In this document: piece after piece, positions 5,693 through 52,382 of the stretch | How positions within the stretch are numbered: position 1 is the first letter of the stretch | How the letters are laid out: each line of letters begins with the position of its first letter | Assembly (NCBI GenBank): GCA_027532775.1 | Contig: JAPZTO010000006.1 | Coordinates: 136,047-200,046, forward strand | Length of the DNA: 64,000 bases | DNA from: Beijerinckiaceae bacterium | Lineage (GTDB): Bacteria > Pseudomonadota > Alphaproteobacteria > Rhizobiales > Beijerinckiaceae | Reading direction: 5' to 3' | Position numbers and translations under genes: made by a program | The notes under the pieces: model-generated | Database searches by the model: none | What the model saw: the letters and a program-made list of their open reading frames with translations, nothing else | Told to the model about the DNA's origin: nothing

Positions 5693-5778
5693 GGCAGCGC
5701 CTCCTTGTTGCGCCGCCATGATATAAACTTAAATTCCTATTGAAGGAATATTGTCCTTCTTCGTTTTCCCCGTTCCCG

Positions 5779-7495: not shown

Positions 7496-7498
7496 GGC

Positions 7499-33599: not shown

Positions 33600-33675
33600 A
33601 CACCCCCGGGCATGCCGGCCGGGCACGACGCTGACCTGTGCGCCGGCGCACCGCCGCAGCCCGGCTTGCGCGACT

Positions 33676-33756
33676 AGAAACAGCGGAACAGGGCCGCTGA
33701 AACAACTCCGTCAGAACTGAAACAAACCGACGCCCCCGCAACACGGCGCTGAAACA
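33676..33756 (+). promoter_or_regulatory. Cluster of direct TGAAACA repeats
   Basis: TGAAACA at 33698, 33718, 33750 and AGAAACA at 33676. Confidence 0.55.
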
Positions 33757-34157: not shown

Positions 34158-34199
34158 AGCGTTTGATGCTTGCGTCGCATCCAGCTCCGGACCTCCCCA

Positions 34200-34802: not shown

Positions 34803-34820
34803 CCACAAGGAAACCTTCCC

Positions 34821-39013: not shown

Positions 39014-39951
39014 ATACCCCTGCCGAAGTCCTGATGCTGTTCGGCGGCATTCTCGCCGTGCTGGTTGTGGCCACCACAATCGGCCAGGTTCTGGCACGCC
39101 GCGTCGGGCCAGAACCCAGCCCTACGATCGAGAACCTGAACCAGCGCATCCTCGCCTGGTGGGTGATGGTGGGACTGATCGGACTCGCCTTCCTGTTCGG
39201 CAAGACGGGCGTGATCCTGCTGTTTGCATTTACATCCTTCGCGGCCCTGCGCGAATTCCTGACATTGACACCGACCCGGCTCGGCGACCATTGGGCGCTG
39301 CTGGCAGCCTTCCTCGTCGTTCTGCCGGTGCAGTATTACCTGATCTGGATCGAGTGGTACGGGCTCTATTCGATCTTCATCCCCGTCTATGCCTTCCTGC
39401 TGCTGCCGATCATCGCGGCAGTCAGCGGTGACACAACGCGATTTCTGGAGCGTGTCGCCTTCGTCCAATGGGGGCTGATGATCACGGTGTTTTGCGTGAG
39501 CCATGTCCCGGCATTCCTGACGCTGGATATTCCCGGCCATGCCGGCAAGCAGGTCCTGCTGGTCGCCTTTCTCGTGATCGTGGTGCAGGGCTCCGATGTC
39601 CTGCAATACGTGTTCGGCAAGCTCTTCGGCCGTCACAAGGTGGCGCCGAGCCTTTCACCCTCCAAGACATGGGAGGGCCTGATCGGCGGCGTGGCCTCGG
39701 CGAGCCTTGTCGGCGCAGGGTTATGGTGGATCACGCCCTTCTCACCCTTCCAGGCGGGAATCATCGCGCTGATCGTCTGCCTGATGGGCTTTTTCGGCGG
39801 GCTCGTCATGTCGGCCATCAAACGGGATCGTGGCGTGAAGGATTGGGGTCGGATGATCGAGGGGCATGGCGGCATGCTTGACCGCCTCGACAGCGTGATC
39901 TTCGCTGCCCCGATCATGTTCCACATCACGCGGTACTGGTTCAGCGCGTAG
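39010..39951 (+). CDS. Phosphatidate cytidylyltransferase, CdsA paralogue (YnbB-like)
   Basis: SDVLQYVFGK, SPSKTWEG, IKRDRGVKDWG, GHGGMLDRLDS. Confidence 0.92.
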   Translation: MNTPAEVLMLFGGILAVLVVATTIGQVLARRVGPEPSPTIENLNQRILAWWVMVGLIGLAFLFGKTGVILLFAFTSFAALREFLTLTPTRLGDHWALLAAFLVVLPVQYYLIWIEWYGLYSIFIPVYAFLLLPIIAAVSGDTTRFLERVAFVQWGLMITVFCVSHVPAFLTLDIPGHAGKQVLLVAFLVIVVQGSDVLQYVFGKLFGRHKVAPSLSPSKTWEGLIGGVASASLVGAGLWWITPFSPFQAGIIALIVCLMGFFGGLVMSAIKRDRGVKDWGRMIEGHGGMLDRLDSVIFAAPIMFHITRYWFSA

Positions 39952-40951
39952 CCGGGCGCCAGGGCGAATCCGGCCGGATGAACCGGGCGATCTCGGCCAA
40001 CGGGATCTCTGCCGACTCGGCAGGTGGGCTCAAGGTGGTCCAGGAGACGGTCACCTTGTCCGCTCCGAAGGCCCAGATCACGCCCTTGCCACCGGAGAGG
40101 ATCTCCTCGAGCCGCTCGTCCAGTTCGTCGGGCCGGTTGATGTCGCGGCGCAGCGCTTCGTGCATGACCTTCCGCCAATTGGCATTCCGCTCGAAGACCG
40201 CGGAAAGCGACACGGGAGCGCCCGTCATCATGTCAATGTTCAGACCGACATCCCGGTCGGGGACCGCCGTGCCGGCATCGACATGCTCGTTGAACTGCAG
40301 GCTCAGAAGGCGTTGCCCAAGATAGGAAACCGCGTAGGTCCGGGTCACGGCACCGTTCAGCGTAATCCGGCCGGCGATCAACGGCTTCTCCGGGGCGATC
40401 ATGCGGCGCAGGGCCGCCTCGAAGGCCTTCATGGCCGGTTCCGGCGCGCCGGACATCACCGGCATGACATCCTCCGTGATCCACCCCATGCGCCGGTCCG
40501 ACGGATCATCCGCCGGGTGGATCCGGAATTCGGTTCGCAGCCTTGGCTCGATTCGGATACCGTCCACCGTGACGACCGACAGCCCGGCCAGGTGCCCGGC
40601 TCTCTGGGTCATCAATTCGGCGAGGCACTGCGAAACCTCGCCCAGAGCATCTGGCTTACGGGCGCGATCGACAGCGCAGAGCCGGTCCGCATAGGCATTG
40701 AACTGGCGCTGCGATTCCTTCAGCGCCGCAGCTTGTGGTGGCGACAGCCTGCTCAGGAGCGGCGCATAGGCCGCGGCCATTTCCGAATCGGTCCGGCGAG
40801 CGTCCTCCGTGGCGCAGGTCGCGCGCTCGCGGGCGGTCACCGCCTTCCGGCAATCGAAGCTGGCGGGTGTCTCGGGAGCCTGGGCAAAAGCCGAGAAGGC
40901 TGTGCCGGCAAGAAAAACGGCCGCACGAGCGGCCGGAGTCAGAATACGCAT
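39941..40951 (-). CDS. Exported protein with N-terminal LprI/DUF1311-like domain
   Basis: Signal peptide then ASFDCRKA..ERATC...D..MAAAY, LKESQRQF, CLAE; start ATG 40951 after GGAG. Confidence 0.7.
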   Translation of the reverse strand: MRILTPAARAAVFLAGTAFSAFAQAPETPASFDCRKAVTARERATCATEDARRTDSEMAAAYAPLLSRLSPPQAAALKESQRQFNAYADRLCAVDRARKPDALGEVSQCLAELMTQRAGHLAGLSVVTVDGIRIEPRLRTEFRIHPADDPSDRRMGWITEDVMPVMSGAPEPAMKAFEAALRRMIAPEKPLIAGRITLNGAVTRTYAVSYLGQRLLSLQFNEHVDAGTAVPDRDVGLNIDMMTGAPVSLSAVFERNANWRKVMHEALRRDINRPDELDERLEEILSGGKGVIWAFGADKVTVSWTTLSPPAESAEIPLAEIARFIRPDSPWRPATR

Positions 40952-40992: not shown

Positions 40993-41412
40993 TCAGGCGG
41001 CGTTCGGCAGGGCATCGGGAGCGGCAAGGCGCGGAACAAGTTCGCCGAGCAGCTTGCGCCAGGCCTGTTCGGCACTGGCAGTGAATTCTTCCTCGAACCG
41101 GCTGCGCAGGGTCGCGACAAGCGCTTCGGCCAGAACAAGCAGGACGTGAAGCGGCACCCGACCACCGGCACGATCGAGATAGCTTTCGAGCAAGGCCTCG
41201 AGCCGCTCGGGTCGGTCGAGCAGACCAGTCACCATGTCGATCGCGGGGGGGATCTCGATGCGGAGGTTCTGGACATCGCGAGGCAGATGGCCGCGCATCC
41301 AGGGATTGGCCCAGCAGGCCCGGGCAAGGCACTCGGCGCCGAAGGCATGGCCGAGCATGGCGACTTCGCCGGCCTGGCGACGGATCAGGGCAAGTTCGGC
41401 TTCATTCAGCAT
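40993..41412 (-). CDS. Globin-fold-like protein lacking the proximal His
   Basis: MLNEAELALIR A-helix start and LAEALVATLRSRFEEEFTASAEQAW G/H helices; no His at the expected F8 position. Confidence 0.6.
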   Translation of the reverse strand: MLNEAELALIRRQAGEVAMLGHAFGAECLARACWANPWMRGHLPRDVQNLRIEIPPAIDMVTGLLDRPERLEALLESYLDRAGGRVPLHVLLVLAEALVATLRSRFEEEFTASAEQAWRKLLGELVPRLAAPDALPNAA

Positions 41413-41514
41413 GGTATCGACTCCGTCTCGGCAGGTCTCGTGGGCAGAGGTCTCGATTGACGCATCCGGTCCGGCACCCGGGGGGTGGTGCTTGAGCGGA
41501 GGGATGGCCGGAGA

Positions 41515-41715
41515 TCAGCGAGCGCGGGTGATGTCGACGCCGTAACCTGTCTGGCCCGGCTGCTGGACGAAGCCGCCGGCCGGAACGAGCCGGTCCTGCC
41601 GCTTGGTGTAGACCGCCGTTTCGGCCTGGGCGCCCGGACCGGACGTGATGGCGGCAAAAGCGAGGGCGGTAACCAGGGTCAGGGCGAAAGTCAGGGCGAT
41701 GTTGCGGTAGAACAT
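41515..41715 (-). CDS. Small exported protein (66 aa)
   Basis: AGGAGG RBS; signal peptide ending GAQA; TKRQDRL motif. Confidence 0.65.
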   Translation of the reverse strand: MFYRNIALTFALTLVTALAFAAITSGPGAQAETAVYTKRQDRLVPAGGFVQQPGQTGYGVDITRAR

Positions 41716-41772
41716 GATGGCCTCCTGAAGCGTCTTGTCTGTTTTTCGATGTTCATCGTTCTGGCGGTTGTC

Positions 41773-41832
41773 TGTTTCGCCTGAGCGATGCCCATCGCCT
41801 TTCTGTGTTTCAGAATGGCTCGACGTGTTTCA
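41773..41832 (-). promoter_or_regulatory. Direct TGAAACA repeats upstream of the 66 aa gene
   Basis: Plus-strand TGTTTCA at 41826 and 41806, TGTTTCG at 41773. Confidence 0.55.
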
Positions 41833-41867
41833 GAAGACCGTGCGTTGCCGCACCGGACGAGGCGGTG

Positions 41868-42548
41868 TCACTCCCCGGCGAGGCGTCCTGCCCGATCAAG
41901 CACGGCGGGCCAGACCGGCTTGTTCGCATAGCGCTGGACGATGGCGGCATGAGCGGCCTTCGCGCCGTCACATTGCCGGGCGTTGCCCTCCTCCACCAGC
42001 TGCTGGCGCCGCGCAGCGGGAATGTCGGCCTTGAGGCCTTGCTTCACGCCGAGACAGGCCTCCAGCCGACCGAGATGCTGGCGGATATCTTCCGGGATGG
42101 TGGCGTCAGCCGGGCCCGGCTTGCTGTCGCCGGTTTCCTTGAGAGCGCGAAAGGCCAGGCCGGGATCATAGGCTTTCAGTGGCTCACCATCGCCATCCGG
42201 CTGCCAGTAGCTGTAGGTCACGGCTTTCTCGTTGTATGTGAGCACTTCGAGGTAGGTGACCGCGCCGTTCTGACGCAGCGTCATGTGGACCTCGCTGGAA
42301 GGGCGCTTTGCGGTGGCAAGGTATTTTGTCGCGGAGACCCGGCGCGCCTTCCAGTTCTCGCTGGTGCCCTTCTTGCGCAACACGGCTAGTTCCTCAGCCT
42401 CGATGCCTTCCGTGGTGTTGTCGAACACTTCGGCTGGCAGCAACGGCAGCCATTCCGCAATCACTTTCGATGAAGGCGGCTTGGCCGATGCCGTCGCCAC
42501 GACCAGAAGCGATATCGTGGCGGTGGCAGCCAGGCAGAGCATTTTCAT
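41868..42548 (-). CDS. Hypothetical exported protein
   Basis: Signal MKMLCLAATATISLLVVATASA; C-terminal Cys pair (ACLG...RQCD). Confidence 0.65.
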   Translation of the reverse strand: MKMLCLAATATISLLVVATASAKPPSSKVIAEWLPLLPAEVFDNTTEGIEAEELAVLRKKGTSENWKARRVSATKYLATAKRPSSEVHMTLRQNGAVTYLEVLTYNEKAVTYSYWQPDGDGEPLKAYDPGLAFRALKETGDSKPGPADATIPEDIRQHLGRLEACLGVKQGLKADIPAARRQQLVEEGNARQCDGAKAAHAAIVQRYANKPVWPAVLDRAGRLAGE

Positions 42549-42793
42549 CAGCAATTTCCTTCCTGTTGATCAGGCGTGTGCGGGCCGGTACGGTTCATCT
42601 TGCCCTGATCTGGCATGCGAGCGTTCCGGGGCGCCGTGCGATGTGACACATGCCAAGATGGCATAAGCGCGCGGGTGGCAGAAAGGGTGCTGAAATAATC
42701 GCTGCAACAGATGGCATCGCCGTGAAATGCGGCGCAGCCATCCTTGCAGCATGAAGACCGGGCCCGACCCAGCCCGACCGCCGGAGATCTGCC

Positions 42794-43123
42794 ATGCCCA
42801 ACCCTCGCTTCCTCCACCGTCTCGCCGTCGGCTTTAGCGTCGCAGGGGGGACCCTGCTGGCCATTTCCACGGCCTCGGCATTCTTCTGCTATGTGCCTGA
42901 AAAGCCGGAAGGCCCGGTGGCACTGCGCGAACGCCCCGATCCACAGGCGAAGATCGTCGCGATGATGCCGCCTGGCGGTATGGTTCGGGAAGTAAAGGGA
43001 AATTCCCGCCACAAGGAATGGGTCCAGGTCCTCTGGATTGCAGATCAGGCCCAGCAGAAGAAGGTGACCGGCCGTGGCTGGGTGGTCCACAGCCAGATCC
43101 ATGGCGGCGAATGCGAGGACTGA
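42794..43123 (+). CDS. Exported bacterial SH3-like domain protein
   Basis: Signal peptide; VALRERPDPQAKIV, EWVQV, GRGWV. Confidence 0.72.
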   Translation: MPNPRFLHRLAVGFSVAGGTLLAISTASAFFCYVPEKPEGPVALRERPDPQAKIVAMMPPGGMVREVKGNSRHKEWVQVLWIADQAQQKKVTGRGWVVHSQIHGGECED

Positions 43124-43227
43124 CGACGGGGCAGAACCCTTCGCCTTGCAGTCTTTGAAGAGCATTCCCCGGCTTTACATCCGGCAACTCCCTGCGGCAC
43201 AAAGTACCGGAACTGAGGGGGCAGGGC

Positions 43228-45921
43228 TTGACGTCGGTTCTGGATGGATCGGGAACGGATTTATGGCCGTCGCGTTGGGAATGGCGGCCGGACGACGACT
43301 CGCTCCTTATCGGCGCAGGGCTTGGCCGCCTGCTTGGCTGGCAACCCGGTGAAACGGGCATCGGTGCGCGATTCGTGGCCCGCGTCCATGCCGAGGATCT
43401 CGCCCGCCACCAATCCGAAATGCGAAAACTGTTGCGCGGCGAACCAGGCTTTACCTGCGCTTCGCGCGTGCTGGCCGCCAATGGAATCATGCTCTGGCTG
43501 TTCCTCTCGGCGCAGGCGGAACGCGACGGTTGCGGCCGCGTCACCCTCGTCAGGGGTCATGCGCATGTGATCGAGGAACCGCGTCATGGTACCGCCGTGC
43601 CAGGGCTGCCTTTTGCGGTGGCAGACCTGTTCTCGGCCGGAATCGCCGCTCTCGAAGCGAGCGAGGCCGAAAAAACAAGGCGGCTTGCGGCCGAGGAGAG
43701 CGCGTTCTCGCAGCGCGAGTTCCTGTCAACCGTGAGCCACGAGATCCGGAACCCGCTGACTGTCATCTTTGCCAATATCGGCATGCTGCGTGCCCGCGCC
43801 GAACAGCAACGCGACACGGGGCTGCTGCAGCGCCTGGCCGCCCTGGAGCGGGCGGGCAAACACCTGCGCGACCTCGTTTCCGACGTGCTCGATCTCGCGA
43901 AGATCGAAGCCGGCCACCTGACGGTGGAGCCGGAGTGGTTCGAGCTGGAGCCCTTGCTGCTCGAGATCGAGGAAATGGGCAATGCGCTGACGCGGGACAA
44001 CGGCGTGATGTTCCTGCTCGATACGCCGCTTGATCTCGGCCGCATGATGGGCGACCGGCTGAAACTGAAGCAGATCATGCTCAACCTCGTCGGAAATGCC
44101 GCCAAGTTCACCCGCGAGGGTCGAATCACGCTCAGCGTCATTGATGGCGGAAGCAGCCTCATCTTCGCCGTTTCGGATACGGGCCCGGGCATCCCGCCGG
44201 ACCGGCTCGACACTCTCTTCAAGGCCTTTTCGCAAGTCGGCGGTTCGAATGCGCCCCGCGCTGCGGGGACCGGGCTGGGGCTCTACATTTCCGAACGATA
44301 TGTCCGCATGCTGGGCGGACGCCTGTCCGTGAGCAGCCGGCTCGGAGAGGGCAGCACGTTCGACTTTGCCCTGCCCCGGGTGCTCCAGCCCGAAGTCATG
44401 CGCGTTCCGCCGGCCCGCTGCGAGAACCGGCTGGTCATCGGCCATACCGAGGATCTGGGCACGCTCGATCCGCATCTGCAGATGCGGGCCACGAATGCGA
44501 TGATCGCACGCCATCAGTTCGATTCGCTGACCGCGATGGACTCGACCGGGCGGCTGCGGCCTGGGCTGGCGGAGAGCTGGGAGCCGCTCGGCACCGAGGG
44601 CTGGCGGTTCACCCTGCGCCGCGGCGTGAGCTTTCATGACGGAACGCCCTTTGATGGCGAGGATGTGCTGGCGACCTTCGATCGGCTCAGGAAACTCGGC
44701 GGACCCTATGCCAGCTTTCTCAAGTCGATTACCCGCGTTGCATTGCCGGAGCCATACCGCCTCGATGTGTTCACGGATGGCGCCCAGCCCTTGTTGCCGA
44801 TCGATCTCAGTCTGCTCTCGATCATCAATCGACGGTTCCGCGACGCGGAGACCGCCGCATTCGACCGGCTGGAGGCCACACTCGGCACAGGTCCCTTCCG
44901 GCTCAAGGCCCGGCTTGGTTCCCGAACACTGCAGTTCGACGGGTTTCCGGCATATTGGGGCGGGCCACCCGAATGGGAACAACTGGAGTTCAGGCTGATC
45001 GATGAAAGTGGACTGGCCAGCGTCAGTGCCCTCCTCGCCGGCGAGGTGGACCTGATCGACAATGTCGGGCCGGACCAGTATCTCGACCTGCAGCGACGTG
45101 ATGACGTCATGCTGTCGACTTGCGAGAGCAACCGGGTCTGGTATCTGTTCTTTGACCAATCGCGTGATGCCTCGCCTTTTATCACGGATCGGTCAGGCAA
45201 GCCGCTGGATCGCAACCCGCTGAAGGATCCGCGGGTCAGACGGGCGATTTCACTCTCCATCGACCGGGAGTTCATCACGACGCGCCTGATGGCCGGCCAG
45301 GGGACGCCGTTGGGCGACGTCGCCGGGCCAGGTATCTTCGGCGTCAACCCCGCTTTGACTCCGCCCCTCTTTGATCCGACAACGGCGCGGCGGCTGATGG
45401 CCGAAGCGGGATATCCGGACGGGTTCGGCATTACCCTGCACGGCTCACGGGACCGGTCTTTCCACGGAGCGACCACGCTCAGGGCCATCGCCCTGATGCT
45501 CAACGCCATCGGCATTCTGTGCAAGCCGGAAGCCTTGGCTGCCGCCGAGTTTTACCCGCGCGCGGCCAAGCGCGATTTCAGCTTCGGCTTGTCGGGTTGG
45601 GGATCGGTGACCGGCGAGACATCGTACACCCTTCGCCTGCTGCTCTGCTCTCCGGACACGGCACGTGGCTTTGGCGGAGCGAATCGCGGTGGTTACGCCA
45701 ACCCGGATCTCGATGCGATTGTGGGAGAGGCCGTGCGGACGATGGACGACGATGTGCGTCGTCGGCTGCTCGAACGTGCCTCCGCCATCGCCATGGGCGA
45801 TGTAGCGATTGCTCCGATCTGTGCACGCCGTACCACCTGGGCGATGAAGAAAGGCCTGCGCTATGAAGCGCAAATGGATGGAGCGCTCCTCGCGATGGCT
45901 GCCCGCCGCGCGCGCGATTGA
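43228..45921 (+). CDS. PAS-HisKA-HATPase histidine kinase fused to a C-terminal family-5 solute-binding domain
   Basis: PAS_3 (WEW, VHAED, NGIMLW); H-box FLSTVSHEIRNPL, N-box NLVGNAAKFT, DTGPGI, GTGLGL; then TLDP...LAESWE..WRFTLRRGVSFHDGTPFDGEDV, GTGPF (SBP_bac_5). No TM segment or signal peptide. Confidence 0.88.
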   Translation: MTSVLDGSGTDLWPSRWEWRPDDDSLLIGAGLGRLLGWQPGETGIGARFVARVHAEDLARHQSEMRKLLRGEPGFTCASRVLAANGIMLWLFLSAQAERDGCGRVTLVRGHAHVIEEPRHGTAVPGLPFAVADLFSAGIAALEASEAEKTRRLAAEESAFSQREFLSTVSHEIRNPLTVIFANIGMLRARAEQQRDTGLLQRLAALERAGKHLRDLVSDVLDLAKIEAGHLTVEPEWFELEPLLLEIEEMGNALTRDNGVMFLLDTPLDLGRMMGDRLKLKQIMLNLVGNAAKFTREGRITLSVIDGGSSLIFAVSDTGPGIPPDRLDTLFKAFSQVGGSNAPRAAGTGLGLYISERYVRMLGGRLSVSSRLGEGSTFDFALPRVLQPEVMRVPPARCENRLVIGHTEDLGTLDPHLQMRATNAMIARHQFDSLTAMDSTGRLRPGLAESWEPLGTEGWRFTLRRGVSFHDGTPFDGEDVLATFDRLRKLGGPYASFLKSITRVALPEPYRLDVFTDGAQPLLPIDLSLLSIINRRFRDAETAAFDRLEATLGTGPFRLKARLGSRTLQFDGFPAYWGGPPEWEQLEFRLIDESGLASVSALLAGEVDLIDNVGPDQYLDLQRRDDVMLSTCESNRVWYLFFDQSRDASPFITDRSGKPLDRNPLKDPRVRRAISLSIDREFITTRLMAGQGTPLGDVAGPGIFGVNPALTPPLFDPTTARRLMAEAGYPDGFGITLHGSRDRSFHGATTLRAIALMLNAIGILCKPEALAAAEFYPRAAKRDFSFGLSGWGSVTGETSYTLRLLLCSPDTARGFGGANRGGYANPDLDAIVGEAVRTMDDDVRRRLLERASAIAMGDVAIAPICARRTTWAMKKGLRYEAQMDGALLAMAARRARD

Positions 45922-45933
45922 GCCATTGCCGGC

Positions 45934-46302
45934 TCAGGCGGCTTCCTCGATACCATCCGAGACAAGGGCAAAGGCGCTGCTCCAGGCTGATCGCGCTGGA
46001 CCGGTGAAGCCATCGCCGATCACTTCCTGCAGGGTATCCAACAGCGCGATTCCCATGGACGCGCAGATCTCGGGGCTATAGCGCATGCCGGCCTGCTCGC
46101 AGGCAGCCACCAGCAACTCGGCAAGGAAGCCGTGCGGGGTTTCCGCGCGGCTGGTCAGGCTGGCGAGCCAATTGCCTTGCGGCGCCCCGCTGGGCAGCAG
46201 CCCGGGCGTGATGCGGCCGAAAACAGCCGCAAAACGCTCGGCCCGCATGGACAGCGTAACAAGCTGGTCTTCCATCAGACGTTGGTCATTCGTGATCAGC
46301 AT
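45934..46302 (-). CDS. Second globin-fold-like protein lacking the proximal His
   Basis: C-terminal MGIALLDTLQEVIGDGFTGPARSAWSSAFALVS matches single-domain globin G/H helices; start ATG 46302. Confidence 0.62.
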   Translation of the reverse strand: MLITNDQRLMEDQLVTLSMRAERFAAVFGRITPGLLPSGAPQGNWLASLTSRAETPHGFLAELLVAACEQAGMRYSPEICASMGIALLDTLQEVIGDGFTGPARSAWSSAFALVSDGIEEAA

Positions 46303-46402
46303 TGCTGCCTCGACACCTCGATTGTGATGCTGGCAGGATGGGTCGGATCGGTTTCCACGCCATGCCGGGCGGGCCCGGCCTTGTTTCAGATGTTTCGCAC
46401 CG

Positions 46403-47128
46403 TCAGTCGCCGACGAACACGTATCCGACGCCCCGTACGGTCTTGATGTATCGTGGCGTGTCGGGATTCGGCTCGATTTTCTTGCGAAGCCGGGTAATGC
46501 GGATGTCAACGGCGCGTTCTGTGTCCCCCGTATCGCCATTGCCGGAATAATCGAGAATCTGGCTACGCGAGAGCGGCCTCCCGGCCCGCGTGGCGAGCAC
46601 CATCAGCAGGTCCAGTTCCAAAGCGGTCAAATCCATGGGCGCGCCCTTCGGGTCGAGCAGTACCCGCGAATCGAGGTCGAGCACCATACCGCCAAAGCGC
46701 AGACGTTTGCCGGAAGGTTCAGGCGCGACCGCCGCAGTTGGCGCGACTGCGGCCGGCAACCGGCGCAAGACACTGCGGACGCGTGCGAGAACCTCCCGCA
46801 ATTCGCATGGCTTGACGATGTAATCGTCCGCGCCGAGTTCGAGGCCGATAATGCGATCGATCGGCGTGCCTGCGGCGGTGGCAAAGATAATCCCGGTCCG
46901 GAACCCCTTGCCCCGGAGCCAGCGCGCAACGGAGAGCCCGTCCTCGCCGGGCATCGCGATATCGAGGACCGCAAGATCAAACGGCGCGGCCTCGATCGCC
47001 TCCCGGAACGTGCTGCCGCGGGCAAAGCCCTCGACCTCAAAACCGTTCATGGCGAGATATTCGACCACGGCATCGCGCAGATCGTCCTCGTCATCGACTA
47101 CGGCGATCCGCTTGTGATCTTCGGCCAT
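46403..47128 (-). CDS. OmpR-family response regulator
   Basis: AVVDDE, VLDIAMPGEDG, GADDYIVKP, VDIRITRLRKKIE, IKTVRGVGY. Confidence 0.93.
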   Translation of the reverse strand: MAEDHKRIAVVDDEDDLRDAVVEYLAMNGFEVEGFARGSTFREAIEAAPFDLAVLDIAMPGEDGLSVARWLRGKGFRTGIIFATAAGTPIDRIIGLELGADDYIVKPCELREVLARVRSVLRRLPAAVAPTAAVAPEPSGKRLRFGGMVLDLDSRVLLDPKGAPMDLTALELDLLMVLATRAGRPLSRSQILDYSGNGDTGDTERAVDIRITRLRKKIEPNPDTPRYIKTVRGVGYVFVGD

Positions 47129-47287
47129 GCCCAACCTTCTCCCTTGCCGGTCAGATTGACGCCTTGCCGTATTCCGACCGTCGCAGGGCCCGAATGCGGG
47201 CGCCCCCCGAACGTGCAGTCCTTGACTTGGCGGGTGGATTCTGATCCCGATCCCGGCGTCTTGTAACCGAACCGGAACCTCGGGCAA

Positions 47288-47971
47288 ATGGCCTCACGCG
47301 GCCGGATCATCCTTATCGACGATGAAATCGACCTGATCAGCGCCTTCGCGGAGTATCTGGTCGATCGCGGGTTCGATGCTGTCGCTGCCGATGGCGCCTA
47401 TGCCTTTGACGGGCTGGTGGCACAGCGCAAGCCAGACCTCGTGGTCCTCGATCTCGCCATGCCAGGCGAATCCGGCCAGGAGTTGCTGCTGCGCATCCGG
47501 GCAGGCAGCGATATTCCCGTCATCATCATGACCGGGCGGGCGGAACTCGTCGACCGGGTCCTCTGCCTTGAGATGGGCGCTGACGACATCGTCCAGAAGC
47601 CCATCGAACCCCGCGAACTGGTGGCGAGGATCCAGGGCCTGCTCGACCGGCGGCAGGGCCGACCACGCGATATCGTCCGGCTCGAGCGGACCACGGTCGA
47701 TCTGCGTGCCGCCCTCGTCATGCATGATAACGGTACCGAGGAACGGTTGACGATCAGCGAGATCATGCTGTTCCGCGCCTTCCTGGCCAACCCGTACAAG
47801 TTGCTGACACGAGACGAGATTCTCGATCTCGCCCCGGCCCAGGACCGGGATGCGCTTGACCGTTCGGTGGATCCGCGCGTCGCACGGCTGAAACGTAAGC
47901 TCGCTACAGAGTCGATCGAAACTCGGCGGGGACACGGCTATGTCTATGTTCCGAAGGCCGAAAAATCATAA
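47288..47971 (+). CDS. OmpR-family response regulator
   Basis: ILIDDE, VLDLAMPG, GADDIVQKP, DRSVDPRVARLKRK, TRRGHGY. Confidence 0.92.
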   Translation: MASRGRIILIDDEIDLISAFAEYLVDRGFDAVAADGAYAFDGLVAQRKPDLVVLDLAMPGESGQELLLRIRAGSDIPVIIMTGRAELVDRVLCLEMGADDIVQKPIEPRELVARIQGLLDRRQGRPRDIVRLERTTVDLRAALVMHDNGTEERLTISEIMLFRAFLANPYKLLTRDEILDLAPAQDRDALDRSVDPRVARLKRKLATESIETRRGHGYVYVPKAEKS

Positions 47972-48026
47972 GCGGCTGGAGCTGTCCTTCGGCTCCGCTC
48001 ACCCGGGAATGCCTGGAGACTGAACG

Positions 48027-49964
48027 ATGCCCCCCCCCTCATCCGCGTGGCTTGATGCGTTGCAGATGCCTGACGGCCAAGCGCTCCGCGCCCTCATCGA
48101 TGCCTGTCCGTCACGCGTTTCCGTTGTCACAGCGGACCATCGCTATCTCTATGCCAACCCCGAATTCCTGAACTTCATTGGGATTCCCCTTGAATCCTTG
48201 ATCGGCCGTGCGGCACGGGATGTGTTGGGACAGGATGTCTATGCTGCGTTCTCGGCAACGGCTCGCCAACTGAGGCCGGACCATTCACCGCGCTGGGAGG
48301 GCTGGATCAACTTCGCGAATGGGGCAAGGCGCAACATCGAGGTCACGATGGTGCCCTACACCCCCGTGGGGAACGTGATCGACGCGATTTTTGTCTTCGC
48401 GCGCGATCTCAGCGACGTGAAGCAGCAAGAACAGGAATTGCGGGAGAGCCTCGCAAGCCTGCAGCAGTCAGAATCTGCTCGCAACGCGTCCGAACAGGTC
48501 AACACCCAGATTGTGCGGAGTGCACTGGACGCATTCATCCTTGCGGACAGCGACGGCAAGATCCGCGACTTCAACCCCGCTGCCGAGGACATGCTCGGCT
48601 ACCGGCGCGAAGACGCGGTCGGAAAGCTGCTTTCTGAGCTGATCATCCCGCATGAGCACAGGGCTGCCCATGATGCCGGCATGAAGCGGTACATGGCCAC
48701 CGGTGTCTCGCGTGTGCTGGGCAAACGCATGCAACTCGAGGCGCTGGCCGTCACCGGCGAGCGCATTCCAGTCGAAGTCACGCTCAACGAGGTCAAGCTC
48801 CCCGACCAGCATCTCTTCACGGCGCATATGCGCGACCTGCGTGAAAGCCGACGCCAGCAGGCGGAAATCGAGGCGCAACGCTCGCGCATTACCCAGATCG
48901 AGAAACTCTCCGCGATGGGTTCATTGCTCGCGGGGGTTGCACATGAACTGAACAACCCGCTCGCCATTCTGCTTGCACAGGCGACCCTACTGCGCGAGAA
49001 GGCACCGTCCGGTGACATCCGGCAGCGGGCAGAGCGGATCCATGCAGCTGCAGAGCGCGCGGGCCGTATCGTCAAGAGCTTCCTGGCTCTCGCGCGCGAG
49101 AAGCCACCAGTCCGCGAGCTGTCGGACCTGAACCAGGTTATCGACAACACCCTGCAAATGCTTGCCTATGGCCTGCGGACAGCGGGAATCGAGGTTGAAA
49201 AGCACCTCGATCCGGGCATGCCGAGGCTCAGAATCGATTCCGACATGATTGGCCAGGTCATCGCCAATATCGTCCTGAACAGCCAGCAGGTTCTGATGAA
49301 CCACCCGAGGCCGCGGATCCTGACGCTGCGGACCCATGCTGCAATCGATCATGCGACACTCGAAATTGCGGATAACGGCCCCGGCGTGCCCGCCGAGGTG
49401 GCCGACCGGATCTTTGACCCTTTCTTCACAACCAAGCCGGCCGGTGTCGGCACCGGCATCGGGCTCGCGATCTGCAAGGACATTATCCAGGCGCATGGCG
49501 GCAAACTCGAGCTGGCGTCCGGCCCGGCACGCGGCGCTCTGTTCCGGATCACGCTTCCGCATGCGGCGGAGGAACCGGCGAATGCTGAGAGCGCGGAAGA
49601 GCAAGGGGCGGGCGAGCGCATCCTGGTGGTGGATGATGAAGTGGATGTCGGGGAGAGCCTCGGCGAAATCCTCGATGCACTGGGCCATCGCGTTACAGTG
49701 ACAGCCTCTGCTCTGCGGGGGCTCGACATGCTGCGCGCGGAACCCTTTGACCGCGTGTTTGTGGATCTCCGGATGCCGGAGATCAGCGGACATGAATTCC
49801 TGAGGGAGCTGCACGAGATGCAGCCTGCCGTGGCGGCCCGCAGCGTGCTGATGACCGGCGATACGGTCCGGGGTCCGGCAACGCTTCTCGGAGGGGTCGA
49901 TGTCCATGTGATGGAGAAGCCGTTTTCCTTCGACGACATCCGCACGGCCCTCGCCCGCGCCTGA
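48027..49964 (+). CDS. Soluble PAS-PAS hybrid histidine kinase with C-terminal receiver
   Basis: Two PAS domains (YLYANP; FNPAAEDMLGY...IIP), AGVAHELNNPL, DNGPGV, FFTTKPAGVGTGIGL, receiver LVVDDE/VDLRMP/EKPF. Confidence 0.93.
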   Translation: MPPPSSAWLDALQMPDGQALRALIDACPSRVSVVTADHRYLYANPEFLNFIGIPLESLIGRAARDVLGQDVYAAFSATARQLRPDHSPRWEGWINFANGARRNIEVTMVPYTPVGNVIDAIFVFARDLSDVKQQEQELRESLASLQQSESARNASEQVNTQIVRSALDAFILADSDGKIRDFNPAAEDMLGYRREDAVGKLLSELIIPHEHRAAHDAGMKRYMATGVSRVLGKRMQLEALAVTGERIPVEVTLNEVKLPDQHLFTAHMRDLRESRRQQAEIEAQRSRITQIEKLSAMGSLLAGVAHELNNPLAILLAQATLLREKAPSGDIRQRAERIHAAAERAGRIVKSFLALAREKPPVRELSDLNQVIDNTLQMLAYGLRTAGIEVEKHLDPGMPRLRIDSDMIGQVIANIVLNSQQVLMNHPRPRILTLRTHAAIDHATLEIADNGPGVPAEVADRIFDPFFTTKPAGVGTGIGLAICKDIIQAHGGKLELASGPARGALFRITLPHAAEEPANAESAEEQGAGERILVVDDEVDVGESLGEILDALGHRVTVTASALRGLDMLRAEPFDRVFVDLRMPEISGHEFLRELHEMQPAVAARSVLMTGDTVRGPATLLGGVDVHVMEKPFSFDDIRTALARA

Positions 49965-49988
49965 ACGGCGCCGGGATCCCATTCTCGG

Positions 49989-50046: not shown

Positions 50047-50667
50047 TCAGAGCACGACCACGCGGGTGCCGACCCGGACACGGTTGTAGAGGTCGGTCAC
50101 GTCCTCGTTCAGCATCCGAATGCACCCCGAGGACACCGCCTCGCCGATGGATTCCGGCTCGTTGGAGCCATGGATCCGGTAGATCGACGAGCCGAGATAC
50201 AGGGCCCGGGCTCCGAGGGGGTTGTCCTCGCCGCCCTTCATATGGGTCGGCAGATCGGGACGGCGCTTCAGCATGGCTGCCGGCGGGCGCCAATCCGGCC
50301 ATTCCTGCTTCATCGAGACGGTGTGCGAGCCGGTCCAGCCGAAGCCCGGCCGACCGACGCCGACCGCGTAGCGAATGGCCTTGCCATTTTCGAGGACCAG
50401 GTAAAGCCGGCGCTCTGCGCTGTTTACCACGATGGTCCCGGGGACATGGCTGGTCTGGTACTCGACGACCGTCGGCGGGATGACGGGCCGCACGGGAGCC
50501 GAGGCGCGGTAGGGTTCAAGGTGCTTCGGATTCATGACCGAGGCGACCTGGACAGGGTTTCCTTCGGCGCGGGCGGCCGGGCTGGCAAGCGCCATGCCGG
50601 CGCCGAGGGCGACAGCGAGGGTCAAGGGAAGGAAGCGGGTGAAGCGATGGTTGGGACGGAAGGACAT
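50047..50667 (-). CDS. L,D-transpeptidase (YkuD/ErfK family)
   Basis: NPLGARALYL, RIHGSNEP, SSGCIRM; signal peptide. Confidence 0.94.
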   Translation of the reverse strand: MSFRPNHRFTRFLPLTLAVALGAGMALASPAARAEGNPVQVASVMNPKHLEPYRASAPVRPVIPPTVVEYQTSHVPGTIVVNSAERRLYLVLENGKAIRYAVGVGRPGFGWTGSHTVSMKQEWPDWRPPAAMLKRRPDLPTHMKGGEDNPLGARALYLGSSIYRIHGSNEPESIGEAVSSGCIRMLNEDVTDLYNRVRVGTRVVVL

Positions 50668-50780: not shown

Positions 50781-50945
50781 TGTTTCGTGAAGCCGCCGCC
50801 CGGTGGCGCCGGATGTTTCAACCCGTGAAACAATGTCCTTTTGGCCGAACGCTCAGGGGAAGGCTGTGTGGTGACGCACAGGTGGCAAAGGGCTCGGCCT
50901 TGCGGGTCCGCCATGCAGGGCGCCCGCGGTGAAACATTTGAAACA
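50781..50945. promoter_or_regulatory. TGAAACA motifs in the divergent ldt/51021 intergenic region
   Basis: Minus copies at 50814-50820 and 50781-50787 (CGAAACA); plus copies at 50826, 50930 and 50939. Confidence 0.5.
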
Positions 50946-51020: not shown

Positions 51021-52382
51021 ATGATCAATGCCGCTCGCATTCCCGACACGCTCGCCCTCGCCATTCTGGCTGGCGTCGCACTTTCTCCCGTCACGTCCAC
51101 CTTCGCGCAGGGCGCAGGCCCGTCTCCCGAGCGCTGCACCGCTGACGGCATCGACTGGGCCAAGTCTGCCGTCTATGCCCGCGCCCGCCATTTCTCCGAT
51201 GCCGGACGGGAACCTCGCGCGCCGGTCATCTGCACGGTGACCCGCGTGGTCGAGGCCAAGCTGGGCCAAACACTGCTCCGGCTGACCGAGGGCCGACTCA
51301 ACATGGAAAAGGCCGATGGCGTCCAATTGCCGGTCCGGTTGATCGATGTCGCCCGGATGGAGGCCGATGGCCCGCGCTCGCTGGCGAGGCTGCTGCTGGA
51401 TGGTGACCCTGTGAACCGGGCAGAGATTTTCGAACCGCAGTTCAACAACGCGGATGGTACGATCCTCGTCCGGCTCGCGCCGCGGCATGACTGGATTTTC
51501 GCCGTGACGGGCAACACCGTCACCGCCGTGCCGGCCTTTGACTGGCAGGAACAGGTCCGGGCGACGCTGCCGGCGGACCAGCGCCATGGCCGCGTGCTGT
51601 CCATCGATGTCGAGCGCATGGAAGGGCGGCTGGCCCTGCGTCGCTCCGGGACGAATCCGGCAGAGCCACTGCCAAGCGCCTTCGAGGACAGCCGCATGGC
51701 GGTCGCGAAACTTGCCTTCCGCAACGGCAAGCTGGAGGTCGACTCCACAACCATTGCTGCGCGAAAGCCCGATGACGAGTTGCTGTTCGCCGAGTTTGCC
51801 GACTCGGAAGAGGACATTCGCAAGAAGGCAGGCAAACTGCCGCCGCGGGTTGAGCCTTGCGCGCTGGGCGGGTGGTCGAACGACACTGACCGGAAGGGCC
51901 TGAATGTCCGGGCAGCGCCAAATGCTGCTGCTCCGGTCCTCGGCATCGTTCCGCCGCCACGCCGGGACAGGCAGACCGAGAACGAGTTCGGGCCCGATCC
52001 GATCAAGGCCGAATTTACAGTCCTCGGCTTTCGTGACGGCTGGTTCCTGATCGGCGAAATCACCGCCCCCGGCGTGGCTTACGGCGTCGCTTATCCCCGC
52101 AAGGCACCCAAACCCTACAAGGGGCAGGGCTGGGTCCATGCGCGGCTGGTCGGCGGCGCGTTGGCCAATGGTGGCTTGCCGACCGGCCAGTTGCATGTGT
52201 CGCCGCATGCCGATTCCGCGACGCTGGAGGTTCGTGACGAGGATGGAAACCCGATCGGCCTTGATGGCACGCCCTTTACCCTTCTCGCTTGCTCGGGCCG
52301 ATGGGGCCTCGTGGAGTTCAAGGGCGGCAAGCGCGGCTGGTGGCGCTCGATCTGCTCGAATCAAGTCACGAACTGCAGCTGA
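51021..52382 (+). CDS. Exported protein with two C-terminal SH3-like repeats
   Basis: Signal peptide; DTDRKGLNVRAAP, RDGWFLI, GQGWVHARL, CSGRWGLVE..GWWRSICSNQVTNC. Confidence 0.7.
   Translation: MINAARIPDTLALAILAGVALSPVTSTFAQGAGPSPERCTADGIDWAKSAVYARARHFSDAGREPRAPVICTVTRVVEAKLGQTLLRLTEGRLNMEKADGVQLPVRLIDVARMEADGPRSLARLLLDGDPVNRAEIFEPQFNNADGTILVRLAPRHDWIFAVTGNTVTAVPAFDWQEQVRATLPADQRHGRVLSIDVERMEGRLALRRSGTNPAEPLPSAFEDSRMAVAKLAFRNGKLEVDSTTIAARKPDDELLFAEFADSEEDIRKKAGKLPPRVEPCALGGWSNDTDRKGLNVRAAPNAAAPVLGIVPPPRRDRQTENEFGPDPIKAEFTVLGFRDGWFLIGEITAPGVAYGVAYPRKAPKPYKGQGWVHARLVGGALANGGLPTGQLHVSPHADSATLEVRDEDGNPIGLDGTPFTLLACSGRWGLVEFKGGKRGWWRSICSNQVTNCS

What the first reader, a model, noticed from the sequence alone, without database searches (positions are those of the whole stretch)
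40993..49964. Possible undescribed multi-component cytoplasmic signalling module
Seen: within 9 kb are two fully soluble kinases (PAS-HK-SBP5 and PAS-PAS-HK-REC), two divergently transcribed OmpR regulators sharing a 159 bp promoter region, and two globin-like ORFs, one 100 bp downstream of a regulator on the same strand. No Hpt gene is visible. Inference: a branched phosphorelay integrating an internal ligand signal with redox or gas signals, possibly controlling the surrounding exported and cell-wall genes.
Basis: inference. Interest (0 to 1): 0.7.

Follow-up and report, generated by a model that had tools for sequence, protein, structure and literature searches.

The report
Two-kinase cassette with its own regulon
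Four signalling genes (a soluble kinase fused to a normally exported solute-binding domain, a FixL-like hybrid kinase and two OmpR-type regulators) are inherited together and sit among envelope genes marked by one shared DNA motif, so this is a real but uncharacterised variant of two-component signalling.

Summary
In detail: all six genes, the 159-bp divergent spacer, the 100-bp gap and the absence of an Hpt gene are as described. The four signalling genes are a conserved, patchily distributed cassette. They lie together in 11 distinct lineages, and in 41 related genomes three of the four (RR2 not searched) occur in exactly the same three. The PAS-HisKA-HATPase-SBP5 protein is a real fusion, not an artefact: about 35 clusters at 90% identity, plus six more distant clusters. 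Its solute-binding domain starts exactly where exported relatives lose their signal peptide, so it must be cytoplasmic. The hybrid kinase carries a FixL-type PAS domain with the heme-ligand histidine conserved. This resembles the hFixL-FxkR oxygen sensor and is a better gas-sensor candidate than the globins. One motif, TGAAACA in phased repeats, is 13-fold enriched in these loci and lies upstream of the neighbouring exported, L,D-transpeptidase, lipid and globin-like genes. That supports control of a local envelope regulon. The two globin-like genes have a true globin fold and are under purifying selection, but they lack the proximal histidine, are confined to the closest sub-clade and look like targets rather than sensors. 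The ligand, kinase-regulator pairing and phosphoryl flow remain untested. It is a new variant of a known kind.

The parts
43228..45921 (+). HK-SBP5: soluble PAS_3-HisKA-HATPase_c kinase with a C-terminal, signal-peptide-less SBP_bac_5 domain (897 aa)
   Evidence: Pfam. 30-sequence alignment with invariant H171, N, G1, F and G2 boxes and SBP5 motifs. AF2 model with confident PAS, CA and SBP5 domains. SBP5 part matches 5u4o at TM 0.89 and GsiB at 0.85. No TM segment.
46403..47128 (-). RR1: OmpR-type response regulator (241 aa), closest to E. coli OmpR among NCBIfam models; proposed binder of the TGAAACA repeats
   Evidence: Pfam and NCBIfam. Orthologs at 50-89% identity in all cassette loci. Recognition helix shared with the regulator of the Rhizobium plasmid module that also has TGAAACA repeats.
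47129..47287 (.). 159-bp divergent promoter region of RR1 and RR2, with a conserved CTTGAC and TGCAACC but no TGAAACA
   Evidence: Alignment of eight orthologous spacers.
47288..47971 (+). RR2: second OmpR-type regulator (227 aa) with a short linker, a different recognition helix (DPRVARLKRKL) and a 5-residue deletion in the wing
   Evidence: Pfam; alignment; orthologs at 45-92% identity.
48027..49964 (+). Hybrid kinase: PAS, FixL-type PAS, HisKA, HATPase_c, receiver (645 aa)
   Evidence: Pfam. PDB phmmer best hits are FixL and DosP heme-PAS domains, with the proximal His aligned. His, H-box and receiver D/T/K are conserved in 9 orthologs and the His in the plasmid homologs.
45934..46302 (-). 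glob2: His-less globin-fold protein (122 aa), convergent with HK-SBP5 and preceded by the motif
   Evidence: AF2 and Foldseek. Profile against PDB. Homologs only in L098 and L099. dN/dS 0.19.
40993..41412 (-). glob1: second His-less globin-like protein (139 aa), downstream of the 66-aa gene
   Evidence: Pfam 22.9 bits. PDB hits nearly all globins. 65% identical ortholog in L098. dN/dS 0.38.
46350..46398 (-). Motif cluster upstream of glob2: cGAAACAtcTGAAACA-N25-GGAAACC
41773..41832 (-). Motif cluster TGAAACA-N13-TGAAACA-N26-cGAAACA upstream of the 66-aa gene, glob1 and the LprI gene
41515..41715 (-). 66-aa exported protein, conserved next to the cassette
   Evidence: GC3 0.84. Orthologs in L001, L007 and L098.
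39941..40951 (-). Exported LprI-domain (lysozyme-inhibitor-like) protein
   Evidence: Pfam. True start found at 40951. Orthologs in L093 and L098.
41868..42554 (-). 228-aa exported protein of unknown family
   Evidence: Orthologs in L092, L093 and L098.
42691..42729 (+). Degenerate motif pair TGAAATA-N25-TGAAATG upstream of the 109-aa gene and HK-SBP5
42794..43123 (+). 109-aa exported SH3-like protein directly upstream of HK-SBP5; several paralogs occur in related loci
   Evidence: Pfam SH3_3, weak; tblastn.
50047..50667 (-). YkuD-type L,D-transpeptidase
   Evidence: Pfam. Orthologs at 64-81% identity in L001, L012, L091 and L093.
50781..50945 (.). Divergent control region: inverted repeat ATGTTTCAacccgTGAAACAAT, cGAAACA towards YkuD, and TGAAACAttTGAAACA towards the 453-aa gene
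   Evidence: The same inverted-repeat layout occurs in L004.
51021..52382 (+). 453-aa exported protein with an SH3_3 hit; the most widely conserved neighbour
   Evidence: Pfam. Orthologs at 45-54% identity in L001, L012, L091 and L093 (three copies in L093).
32899..33756 (+). Motif sites at 32899 (plus GGAAAC at 32931) and at 33676, 33698, 33718 and 33750. The 199-aa gene (33000-33599) lies between them; the 107-aa gene (33834) follows
33834..39951 (+). 107-aa exported protein followed by a lipid operon: CDP-alcohol phosphatidyltransferase, hydrolase-methyltransferase, PAP2-DSP phosphatase, a 150-aa ORF, acyltransferase and cytidylyltransferase
   Evidence: Pfam. Also next to the cassette in L092 and L098.

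Best explanation
This is a conserved, horizontally patchy four-gene signalling cassette that controls the envelope gene island around it.

Shown: the four genes travel together. One DNA element, phased TGAAACA repeats at spacings of 9-11, about 20 and about 32 bp, is concentrated at the promoters of the neighbouring genes. It follows the cassette into other genera.

Inferred:
1. The hybrid kinase senses O2 or a related gas or redox signal through a FixL-type heme-PAS domain. It signals to RR1, as hFixL does to FxkR.
2. RR1, the OmpR-like regulator, binds the TGAAACA repeats. The promoter-proximal repeat lies upstream of -10-like hexamers, where a -35 element would be expected. RR1 thereby activates genes for exported SH3-like proteins, an L,D-transpeptidase, an LprI-like protein, a lipid-modifying operon and, in this sub-clade, two His-less globins.
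3. HK-SBP5 senses a cytoplasmic small molecule. Venus-flytrap closure of the SBP5 domain, tethered about 15 residues behind the ATP-binding domain, alters kinase or phosphatase activity. This kinase feeds mainly RR2.
4. The two branches converge on the same island.

The ligand is unknown. Candidates are a glutathione-like or other peptide, a muropeptide, or a metal complex.
For: Co-inheritance:
- HK-SBP5, RR1, RR2 and the hybrid kinase lie within 10 kb in the window, L098, L001, L012, L091, L092, L093, L094, L004 and L013; in G001 (L007) the fourth gene was placed.
- Among 41 relatives, HK-SBP5, the hybrid kinase and RR1 orthologs occur in exactly the same three genomes.

Real fusion:
- 30 aligned full-length members have intact catalytic boxes and a conserved short linker.
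- Six further 50%-identity clusters have HisKA-HATPase_c-SBP_bac_5.
- Free relatives carry signal peptides, and the fused domain starts at their mature N-terminus.
- The complete SBP fold is retained.

Gas sensor:
- PAS2 is closest to FixL and DosP heme domains (E 7.7e-15), with the proximal His aligned.
- That His is invariant in nine orthologs and two plasmid homologs.
- The hFixL-FxkR precedent is described in PMC7888657 and PMC4999443.

Motif:
- 14 sites in the window against 2.9 expected.
- 149 sites in the 3.8-Mb genome, with 10 of the 18 phased sites inside 18 kb.
- 60 observed against 4.6 expected in six loci, and no second motif.
- Present in L001, L012, L091, L092 and L093; no exact copies in the cassette-less L003 and L095.
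- All 10 exact copies in the island (32.9-50.9 kb) are intergenic, upstream of island genes.
- The same tandem repeat precedes a globin gene behind a 40%-identical regulator-kinase pair on a Rhizobium plasmid.
- The same inverted repeat lies next to the cassette in Oceanicola.

RR1 and the motif: RR1 and the Rhizobium regulator share the recognition helix, whereas RR2 differs.

Pairing: RR1-type regulators precede the hybrid kinase in L092, L094, L004, L013, L096 and L097. RR2-type regulators precede HK-SBP5 in L094, L004 and L013.
Against: - No experiment or transcript data exist. Only DNA runs hold this sequence.
- In the window and five relatives, RR2 rather than RR1 is in the operon with the hybrid kinase, so pairing by gene order is inconsistent.
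- Heme binding is inferred from one histidine. FixL Arg220 does not align cleanly.
- The HK-SBP5 kinase core resembles hybrid-kinase cores such as TorS, LuxQ and BarA, which normally phosphorylate a receiver domain. Its target could therefore be the receiver of the hybrid kinase.
- Three contexts hold the fusion kinase as an orphan (L003, L095, L104).
- No binding site for RR2 was found.
- The regulators' own spacer lacks the motif.
- Exact TGAAACA copies are few or absent in group B loci.
- The ligand class could not be resolved.
Confidence: 0.55

Rival explanations
1. The module is a true multi-step, branched phosphorelay. The hybrid kinase passes phosphate from its His to its own receiver, then to an unlinked Hpt protein, then to RR1 and/or RR2. 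HK-SBP5 feeds in as a second entry point.
For: The receiver of the hybrid kinase has all catalytic residues. Two small free-standing Hpt candidates exist elsewhere in the genome, at C13:872779 and C10:290399.
Against: No Hpt gene lies in any of the cassette loci examined. In hFixL-FxkR, the closest described system, the papers read name no Hpt component: they describe a two-component system of hFixL with FxkR as the receiver protein. A component that is needed but never linked would be unusual for a patchy, transferable cassette.
Confidence: 0.15
2. One kinase acts on the other. HK-SBP5 descends from a hybrid kinase whose receiver was replaced by SBP5. It phosphorylates or dephosphorylates the receiver of the FixL-like kinase in trans. 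The cytoplasmic ligand thereby gates the oxygen pathway, and RR2 acts as a sink or modulator.
For: The best family matches of the HK-SBP5 core are all hybrid kinases: TorS, LuxQ, HrmK, BarA, ArcB and RcsC. The SBP5 domain sits exactly where their receiver would be. The shuffled operon pairing argues that all four proteins work as one unit. Only one cis motif was found for two regulators.
Against: RR2 keeps a complete receiver and a DNA-binding domain under strong purifying selection (dN/dS 0.065). In group B it is in an operon with HK-SBP5, the classical sign of a cognate pair. Orphan HK-SBP5 genes exist without the hybrid kinase.
Confidence: 0.15
3. The globin-like proteins are co-sensors. 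They bind a gas or another ligand and modulate one of the kinases by protein-protein contact.
For: - A glob2 homolog sits convergent to the 3' end of HK-SBP5 in three lineages, even though its other flank differs in L099.
- A heme-competent globin follows a 40%-identical hybrid kinase in Rhizobium sp. RCAM05350 and Neorhizobium sp. EC2-8.
- Both genes are under purifying selection.
- Non-heme globin sensor domains are known, for example the RsbR N-terminal domain (own knowledge).
Against: - The globins are absent from nine of the eleven lineages with the cassette.
- The F8 His is replaced in both.
- Each has the TGAAACA repeats upstream, like the other target genes. In Rhizobium the motif lies between the kinase and the globin.
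- They evolve three to six times faster than the signalling proteins.
Confidence: 0.1
4. The SBP5 domain no longer binds a ligand. It serves as a structural, dimerising or docking module, and the real input of this kinase is its N-terminal PAS domain.
For: The Asp that anchors the peptide N-terminus in DppA (D408) aligns with Val. The PAS domain has nearly invariant residues such as C77 in the CASR motif.
Against: The SBP5 half is the best conserved part of the protein. It shares the SLDPH, GWGSxTGE and NRGxYxNP motifs with exported, presumably ligand-binding relatives. The PAS domain is missing in several members (P0020, P0021, P0127, P0128), while SBP5 is always present.
Confidence: 0.1
5. 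The genes are unrelated neighbours, and the fusion gene is an assembly or frameshift artefact.
For: None beyond the prior that two-component genes are abundant in Alphaproteobacteria.
Against: The same four orthologs occur together across two orders with rearranged order. Three of the four show an identical phyletic pattern. More than 35 independent full-length fusion sequences exist, with dN/dS of 0.10.
Confidence: 0.02

Closest known systems
hFixL-FxkR oxygen-sensing system of Rhizobium etli and R. leguminosarum (Zamorano-Sanchez 2012; PMC7888657; PMC4999443)
   Same: A hybrid kinase with a FixL-type PAS domain and a C-terminal receiver works with an OmpR-family regulator. That regulator binds short direct hexamer repeats about one helical turn apart. 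No Hpt is part of the described system.
   Different: The motif here is TGAAACA at spacings of 9-11, 20 and 32 bp, not GTTACA-N4-GTTACA. The targets are exported, cell-wall and lipid genes, not fixK or cco. A second regulator and a second kinase, HK-SBP5, are always attached. The Rhizobium plasmid kinases among the hits are only about 27-31% identical. Heme binding is untested.
Venus-flytrap sensor kinases (BvgS and EvgS) and SBP-dependent kinases (ChiS with CBP, LuxQ with LuxP); reviewed in PMC8050422 and PMC5829827
   Same: A periplasmic-binding-protein fold serves as the ligand input of a histidine kinase. CBP, the partner of ChiS, is itself an SBP_bac_5 protein.
   Different: In those systems the binding fold is outside the cytoplasm, either N-terminal to the membrane segments or a separate protein. 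Here an SBP_bac_5 domain is fused C-terminal to the ATP-binding domain of a kinase with no membrane segment, so it must act in the cytoplasm and on the catalytic domain side.
Exported family-5 solute-binding proteins (5u4o, GsiB/YliB, DppA, GbpA, MppA, NikA)
   Same: The full two-lobed fold is retained: TM 0.75-0.89, 206 bits to Pfam SBP_bac_5, and about 40% identity to free exported relatives, with shared motifs.
   Different: There is no signal peptide and no partner ABC permease in the island, and the domain is fused to a kinase. The peptide-anchoring Asp of DppA is not conserved. Databases label the protein 'ABC transporter substrate-binding protein', which is misleading.
EnvZ-OmpR
   Same: RR1 scores best against the OmpR model (202 bits). 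From memory, OmpR half-sites contain GAAACA, as in the ompF F1 site; this was not tested here.
   Different: RR1 is below the OmpR equivalog cut-off (331 bits). Its kinases are soluble PAS kinases rather than a membrane osmosensor.
Cytoplasmic SBP5 domains in other signalling proteins
   Same: A family-5 binding fold without an export signal is fused to a cytoplasmic kinase and is presumed to be a ligand sensor.
   Different: The kinase class, architecture and phylum all differ. That note is an unchecked AI report and was not verified here.

Membership tests
HisKA-type histidine kinase (applies to both kinases) | Phospho-acceptor His in the H-box, plus N, G1, F and G2 boxes in the ATP-binding domain | tested here: met
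   HK-SBP5: H171, N286/N290, D317-G321, F331/F334 and G349-G351 are invariant in 30 sequences. Hybrid kinase: AHELNNPL, DNGPGV and GTGIGL are conserved in 9 orthologs.
HisKA-type histidine kinase | Autophosphorylation and transfer to a receiver Asp | not testable with these tools
   Needs biochemistry.
SBP_bac_5 transport solute-binding protein | Family-5 two-lobed fold | tested here: met
   Pfam 206 bits. TM 0.89 to 5u4o and 0.85 to GsiB.
SBP_bac_5 transport solute-binding protein | Signal peptide or lipobox and an extracytoplasmic location | tested here: not met
   The domain starts at the mature N-terminus of its exported relatives, behind a kinase with no TM segment.
SBP_bac_5 transport solute-binding protein | Adjacent ABC permease and ATPase genes | tested here: not met
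   No ABC transporter gene appeared among the genes annotated between about 30 and 52 kb of the window. Dpp-like operons lie near some homologs (L003, L092) but are not conserved.
hFixL-FxkR system | Hybrid kinase with a FixL-type PAS domain, proximal His and C-terminal receiver | tested here: met
   Heme binding itself was not tested.
hFixL-FxkR system | OmpR-family partner regulator encoded nearby | tested here: met
   RR1 and RR2 are adjacent. An RR1-type regulator is in the operon with the kinase in six loci.
hFixL-FxkR system | K-box GTTACA-N4-GTTACA and fixK as target | tested here: not met
   The enriched element is TGAAACA. No fixK or cco genes appeared among the genes annotated in the island or called in the related loci.
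Multi-step His-Asp-His-Asp phosphorelay | Hpt domain or protein | tested here: not met
   No PF01627 match on the window's contig. No Hpt among the called genes of the related loci. Unlinked candidates exist elsewhere in the genome.
Globin | Globin fold | tested here: met
   glob2: AF2 model with pLDDT 85.8, and the top 50 Foldseek hits are all globins. glob1: Pfam 22.9 bits and nearly all PDB hits are globins.
Globin | Proximal histidine F8 that ligates heme | tested here: not met
   Aligned to the His of the Rhizobium globin (AIKHVGYG), glob2 has Gln (ACEQAGMR) and glob1 has Arg (YLDRAGGR).
OmpR/PhoB-family response regulator (RR1 and RR2) | Receiver with DD, D, T and K residues, plus a winged-helix Trans_reg_C domain | tested here: met
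   Pfam; alignment.

The most novel reading that the evidence does not exclude
HK-SBP5 would be the first histidine kinase shown to use a cytoplasmic family-5 solute-binding domain as its sensor. It would read an internal metabolite pool: glutathione or a gamma-glutamyl peptide, a cell-wall recycling muropeptide, or a metal complex. Together with a heme-PAS oxygen-sensing hybrid kinase, it would form a portable two-input gate. That gate would remodel the peptidoglycan (L,D-transpeptidase, SH3-like proteins) and the membrane lipids of the envelope through one OmpR-like operator code.
Probability: 0.25. Interest if true: 0.75.

Novelty: new variant of a known kind. Interest (0 to 1): 0.55.

Why it matters
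Solute-binding proteins are treated as extracytoplasmic parts of transporters or as partners of membrane receptors; the review read here says so in its first line (PMC8050422). A conserved kinase with such a domain inside the cell, on the catalytic-domain side, would be a different way of wiring ligand binding to a histidine kinase. It would also correct the database label 'ABC transporter substrate-binding protein'.

The cassette brings its own small regulon and a simple operator, which makes it an unusually tractable system. It has two inputs, two regulators, about seven promoters and one motif. That suits the study of how two kinases share or split outputs, and of what links oxygen or redox state to L,D-transpeptidation and lipid remodelling in freshwater and marine Alphaproteobacteria.

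Tried and rejected
- Expression evidence: only DNA runs from lake-water and sediment metagenomes hold the sequence, so co-transcription could not be tested.
- Literature: searches for SBP_bac_5 with histidine kinase, cytoplasmic solute-binding domain, Venus flytrap with cytoplasmic, and the genus name found no description of this fusion or cassette.
- Second motif for RR2: 7-mer enrichment found only TGAAACA and its overlapping variants.
- Autoregulation: the RR1-RR2 spacer has a conserved CTTGAC and TGCAACC but no TGAAACA.
- Ligand class: no clear answer. PDB sequence and fold matches rank 5u4o (unknown ligand), GsiB, DppA, GbpA, MppA and NikA closely together. A Ralstonia free homolog lies in a Fur-CobW-DksA cluster, which hints at metal. 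NCBIfam gives a weak nickel-SBP hit.
- Inter-domain geometry of HK-SBP5: the monomer AF2 model has pTM 0.57 and low-confidence DHp helices, so nothing was read from domain packing.
- Globin homologs in the cassette loci of other lineages: none at E 0.01.
- Pairing by specificity residues: not attempted in earnest, because about ten sequences in two clades are too few for covariation.
- ORFs 42548-43165(-), 43726-45159(-) and 48987-49982(-): treated as non-coding shadows of real genes, from codon-position GC and homology.

Full report
**What is in the sequence**

The region lies in a 65% G+C genome of 3.8 Mb in 17 contigs. The genome was recovered from lake-water metagenomes. Its genus is probably Rhabdaerophilum, because one same-genus match is a MAG with that name.

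- 43228-45921(+) encodes 897 residues with PAS_3, HisKA, HATPase_c and SBP_bac_5 (206 bits).
- 48027-49964(+) encodes PAS_4, PAS, HisKA, HATPase_c and a receiver.
- 46403-47128(-) and 47288-47971(+) encode OmpR-family regulators, called RR1 and RR2 here. They are separated by 159 bp.
- 45934-46302(-) and 40993-41412(-) encode small globin-like proteins. The first starts 100 bp after the RR1 stop.

Neither kinase has a membrane-like segment. No Hpt domain lies on the contig.

**The fusion kinase is real and forms a family**

A search of 5.8 billion proteins found about 35 clusters of full-length homologs (51-80% identity) with the same four domains. The next-best hits are free SBP5 proteins at about 40% identity.

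In an alignment of 30 members, the phospho-acceptor His and the N, G1, F and G2 boxes are invariant. So is much of the SBP5 half. The linker between the ATP-binding domain and SBP5 is short and conserved.

An exhaustive HMMER search of 1.84 billion cluster representatives found six further clusters at 29-38% identity. Pfam confirms that all are HisKA-HATPase_c-SBP_bac_5. The architecture is therefore old and rare, and its N-terminal PAS domain is optional.

The free relatives all have signal peptides. The fused domain begins at their mature N-terminus and shares their SLDPH, GWGSxTGE and NRGxYxNP motifs.

An AF2 model gives confident PAS, catalytic and SBP5 domains. The SBP5 part superposes on 5u4o (TM 0.89), GsiB (0.85), DppA, GbpA, MppA and NikA. 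A complete binding fold is thus kept, in a protein that can only be cytoplasmic.

I found no paper that describes this. Where a source names these proteins, it calls them transporter binding proteins.

**The four signalling genes are one unit**

Gene neighbourhoods of homologs show HK-SBP5, RR1, RR2 and the hybrid kinase within 10 kb in ten lineages:
- the window and L098;
- L001, which is the same sequence as L006 and L011;
- L012, L091, L092, L093, L094 and L013;
- L004, from Oceanicola sp. 22II-s10i (order Rhodobacterales).

Orthology was confirmed by tblastn (RR1 50-89%, RR2 45-92%, hybrid kinase 43-84%) and by shared indels. An eleventh lineage is G001. Its short locus L007 holds HK-SBP5, RR1 and RR2, and the hybrid kinase lies beside them.

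Three homologs are orphans: L003, L095 and the distant L104.

Among 41 genomes of the same genus, family and order, HK-SBP5, the hybrid-kinase ortholog and the RR1 ortholog occur in exactly the same three genomes. RR2 was not searched in this way.

Gene order is not fixed.
- RR2 precedes the hybrid kinase in the window, L098, L001, L012, L091 and L093.
- RR1 precedes the hybrid kinase in L092, L094, L004 and L013.
- RR1-type regulators also precede the kinase in two more distant plasmid modules, L096 and L097.
- In L094, L004 and L013, RR2 precedes HK-SBP5.

The unit is kept while its internal wiring diagram, as read from operons, is shuffled.

**The hybrid kinase looks like hFixL**

The PAS domain next to the kinase core is closest to the heme-PAS domains of FixL (1d06, E 7.7e-15) and DosP. 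The proximal histidine aligns (RAAHDAGMKRY against HEHDGYLQRY).

That His, the H-box and the receiver Asp, Thr and Lys are conserved in nine orthologs. The N-terminal part varies from none to two extra PAS domains, or a dCache domain plus a membrane segment in L092. The plasmid homologs keep the His as well.

Hybrid FixL working with the OmpR-family regulator FxkR through GTTACA-N4-GTTACA boxes is described in Rhizobium. This is the nearest precedent, but the motif and the targets differ here.

**A cassette-linked operator and a local regulon**

- The window has 14 copies against 2.9 expected.
- The whole genome has 149. Of the 18 sites with a phased GAAAC partner, 10 lie between 32.9 and 50.9 kb of the window.
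- Across six cassette loci it is the most enriched 7-mer, with 60 observed against 4.6 expected. All other top words overlap it.
- It recurs with the same 20-bp and 32-bp spacings and the same inverted-repeat form in L001, L012, L091, L092 and L093. There are no exact copies in the cassette-less L003 and L095, nor in L013.
- All 10 exact copies in the island are intergenic.

The sites lie upstream of the following genes:
- a 199-aa exported protein;
- a 107-aa exported protein followed by a lipid operon;
- a 66-aa exported protein followed by glob1 and an LprI-domain protein;
- glob2;
- a YkuD L,D-transpeptidase;
- a 453-aa exported protein with an SH3_3 hit.

A degenerate pair precedes the 109-aa SH3-like gene and HK-SBP5.

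Most of these neighbours are themselves conserved next to the cassette.

Two observations tie the motif to the regulators rather than to the host genome.
- On a Rhizobium plasmid, a regulator and a hybrid kinase (40% identical) are followed by TGAAACAatTGAAACA-N26-AGAAACA and then a genuine globin gene.
- In Oceanicola, the spacer after HK-SBP5 holds ATGTTTCtgtccGGAAACAT plus phased GAAAC elements in front of an RTX-like gene.

RR1 and the Rhizobium regulator share the recognition helix. RR2 has a different one and a five-residue deletion in the wing. I therefore assign the motif to RR1; this is an inference. The regulators' own spacer has a conserved CTTGAC but no TGAAACA.

**The globin-like genes**

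The glob2 family folds as a six-helix globin, with pLDDT 85.8 and all 50 best PDB matches being globins.

glob1 and glob2 are under purifying selection against their L098 orthologs, with dN/dS of 0.38 and 0.19. The signalling genes score 0.055-0.10.

Both lack the F8 histidine.

Homologs exist only in the closest sub-clade. These are L098 and L099, whose HK-SBP5 proteins are 80% and 77% identical to the window's. No homologs appear in the other cassette loci.

They carry the motif upstream, so they read as lineage-specific cargo of the regulon. A weak link to this kind of kinase is real, however. A globin follows the homologous kinase in Rhizobium and Neorhizobium, and glob2 stays next to HK-SBP5 in L099 although its other flank differs.

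**How it most likely works**

Shown: there is a co-inherited two-kinase, two-regulator cassette, and a cassette-linked operator lies on the surrounding envelope genes.

Inferred:
- The FixL-like kinase reports O2 or redox state to RR1.
- RR1 binds the repeats and activates promoters. The proximal repeat lies where a -35 element would be expected.
- HK-SBP5 reports a cytoplasmic ligand, mainly to RR2.
- The two branches meet on the island.

The ligand is open. The peptide-anchoring Asp of DppA is a Val here, while the GW..TGE motif is shared with GsiB and 5u4o. A Ralstonia free homolog sits in a Fur-CobW-DksA cluster.

The rivals, with my odds, are listed in their own section. They are a real relay through an unlinked Hpt, one kinase acting on the other's receiver, globins as co-sensors, and a non-binding SBP5 domain.

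**Verdict**

- Observation: confirmed.
- Interpretation: partly supported.
- Class: a new variant of a known kind. It is a two-component system with an undescribed cytoplasmic SBP5 sensor kinase and a self-contained regulon.
- Interest: moderate to fairly high for signalling specialists.
- Limit: nothing here is experimental.

Noticed in passing
window 34170-39951 (+), with motif sites at 33676-33756: The YnbA-D-like lipid operon is preceded by four phased (T/A)GAAACA repeats. It comprises a CDP-alcohol phosphatidyltransferase, a hydrolase-methyltransferase fusion, a PAP2-DSP phosphatase, an acyltransferase and a cytidylyltransferase. It is also adjacent to the cassette in L092 and L098, so it may belong to the same regulon.
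   Followed up: partly
L096 (Rhizobium sp. RCAM05350 plasmid CP087972.1) 6285-9538; Neorhizobium sp. EC2-8 NZ_CP147998.1 about 1601438-1603917: A simpler module: an RR1-like regulator, a PAS-PAS hybrid kinase (40% identical), then TGAAACAatTGAAACA-N26-AGAAACA, then a heme-competent 147-aa globin. It could be a minimal relative of the cassette and a good experimental entry point.
   Followed up: partly
L097 (Pleomorphomonas sp. SM30 plasmid pSM30-1) 4217-10548: The same layout with a different second kinase: a divergent OmpR-type pair followed by two hybrid kinases (a 46%-identical PAS type and a GAF-PAS type). The divergent regulator has a degenerate receiver, at 29.7 bits, below the Pfam cut-off.
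   Followed up: no
L100-L102 (Ralstonia-like metagenome contigs) 3071-8593: The closest widespread free relative of the fused SBP5 domain (P0042, 39% identity) is an orphan binding protein with no permease. It sits directly after Fur-family, CobW, DksA-like and CobW genes, an arrangement typical of zinc-starvation regulons.
   Followed up: no
G001:C1:21506-23815 (L103): A same-genus genome that has the cassette also carries a second, orphan three-PAS hybrid kinase (about 63% identical). It has no RR1 or RR2 nearby and lies next to an SH3-like small gene.
   Followed up: partly
own genome C13:396560-396598 (-) and C12:16378 (+): Two distal sites have the island's motif layout (TGAAACA-N25-TGAAACA and TGAAACA-N26-GAAAC). 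They lie upstream of a 96-aa and a 555-aa exported protein and are possible remote members of the regulon.
   Followed up: partly
window 42548-43165 (-), 43726-45159 (-), 48987-49982 (-): Long ORFs on the opposite strand of real genes are shadow frames typical of high-GC DNA. The real gene at 42794-43123(+) and the 66-aa gene at 41515-41715(-) are easy to miss.
   Followed up: yes
L004 12907-18332: In Oceanicola the cassette is followed by an RTX-like (HemolysinCabind) protein with its type I secretion ABC and membrane-fusion genes, behind GAAAC repeats. The cargo of the cassette therefore differs between clades but is again exported.
   Followed up: partly
HK-SBP5 residues 54-90 (window about 43387-43497): The PAS_3 domain has nearly invariant H54, D57, R60, H61, C77-A78-S79-R80 and W90. 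The conserved Cys in CASR may mark a cofactor or redox site.
   Followed up: no
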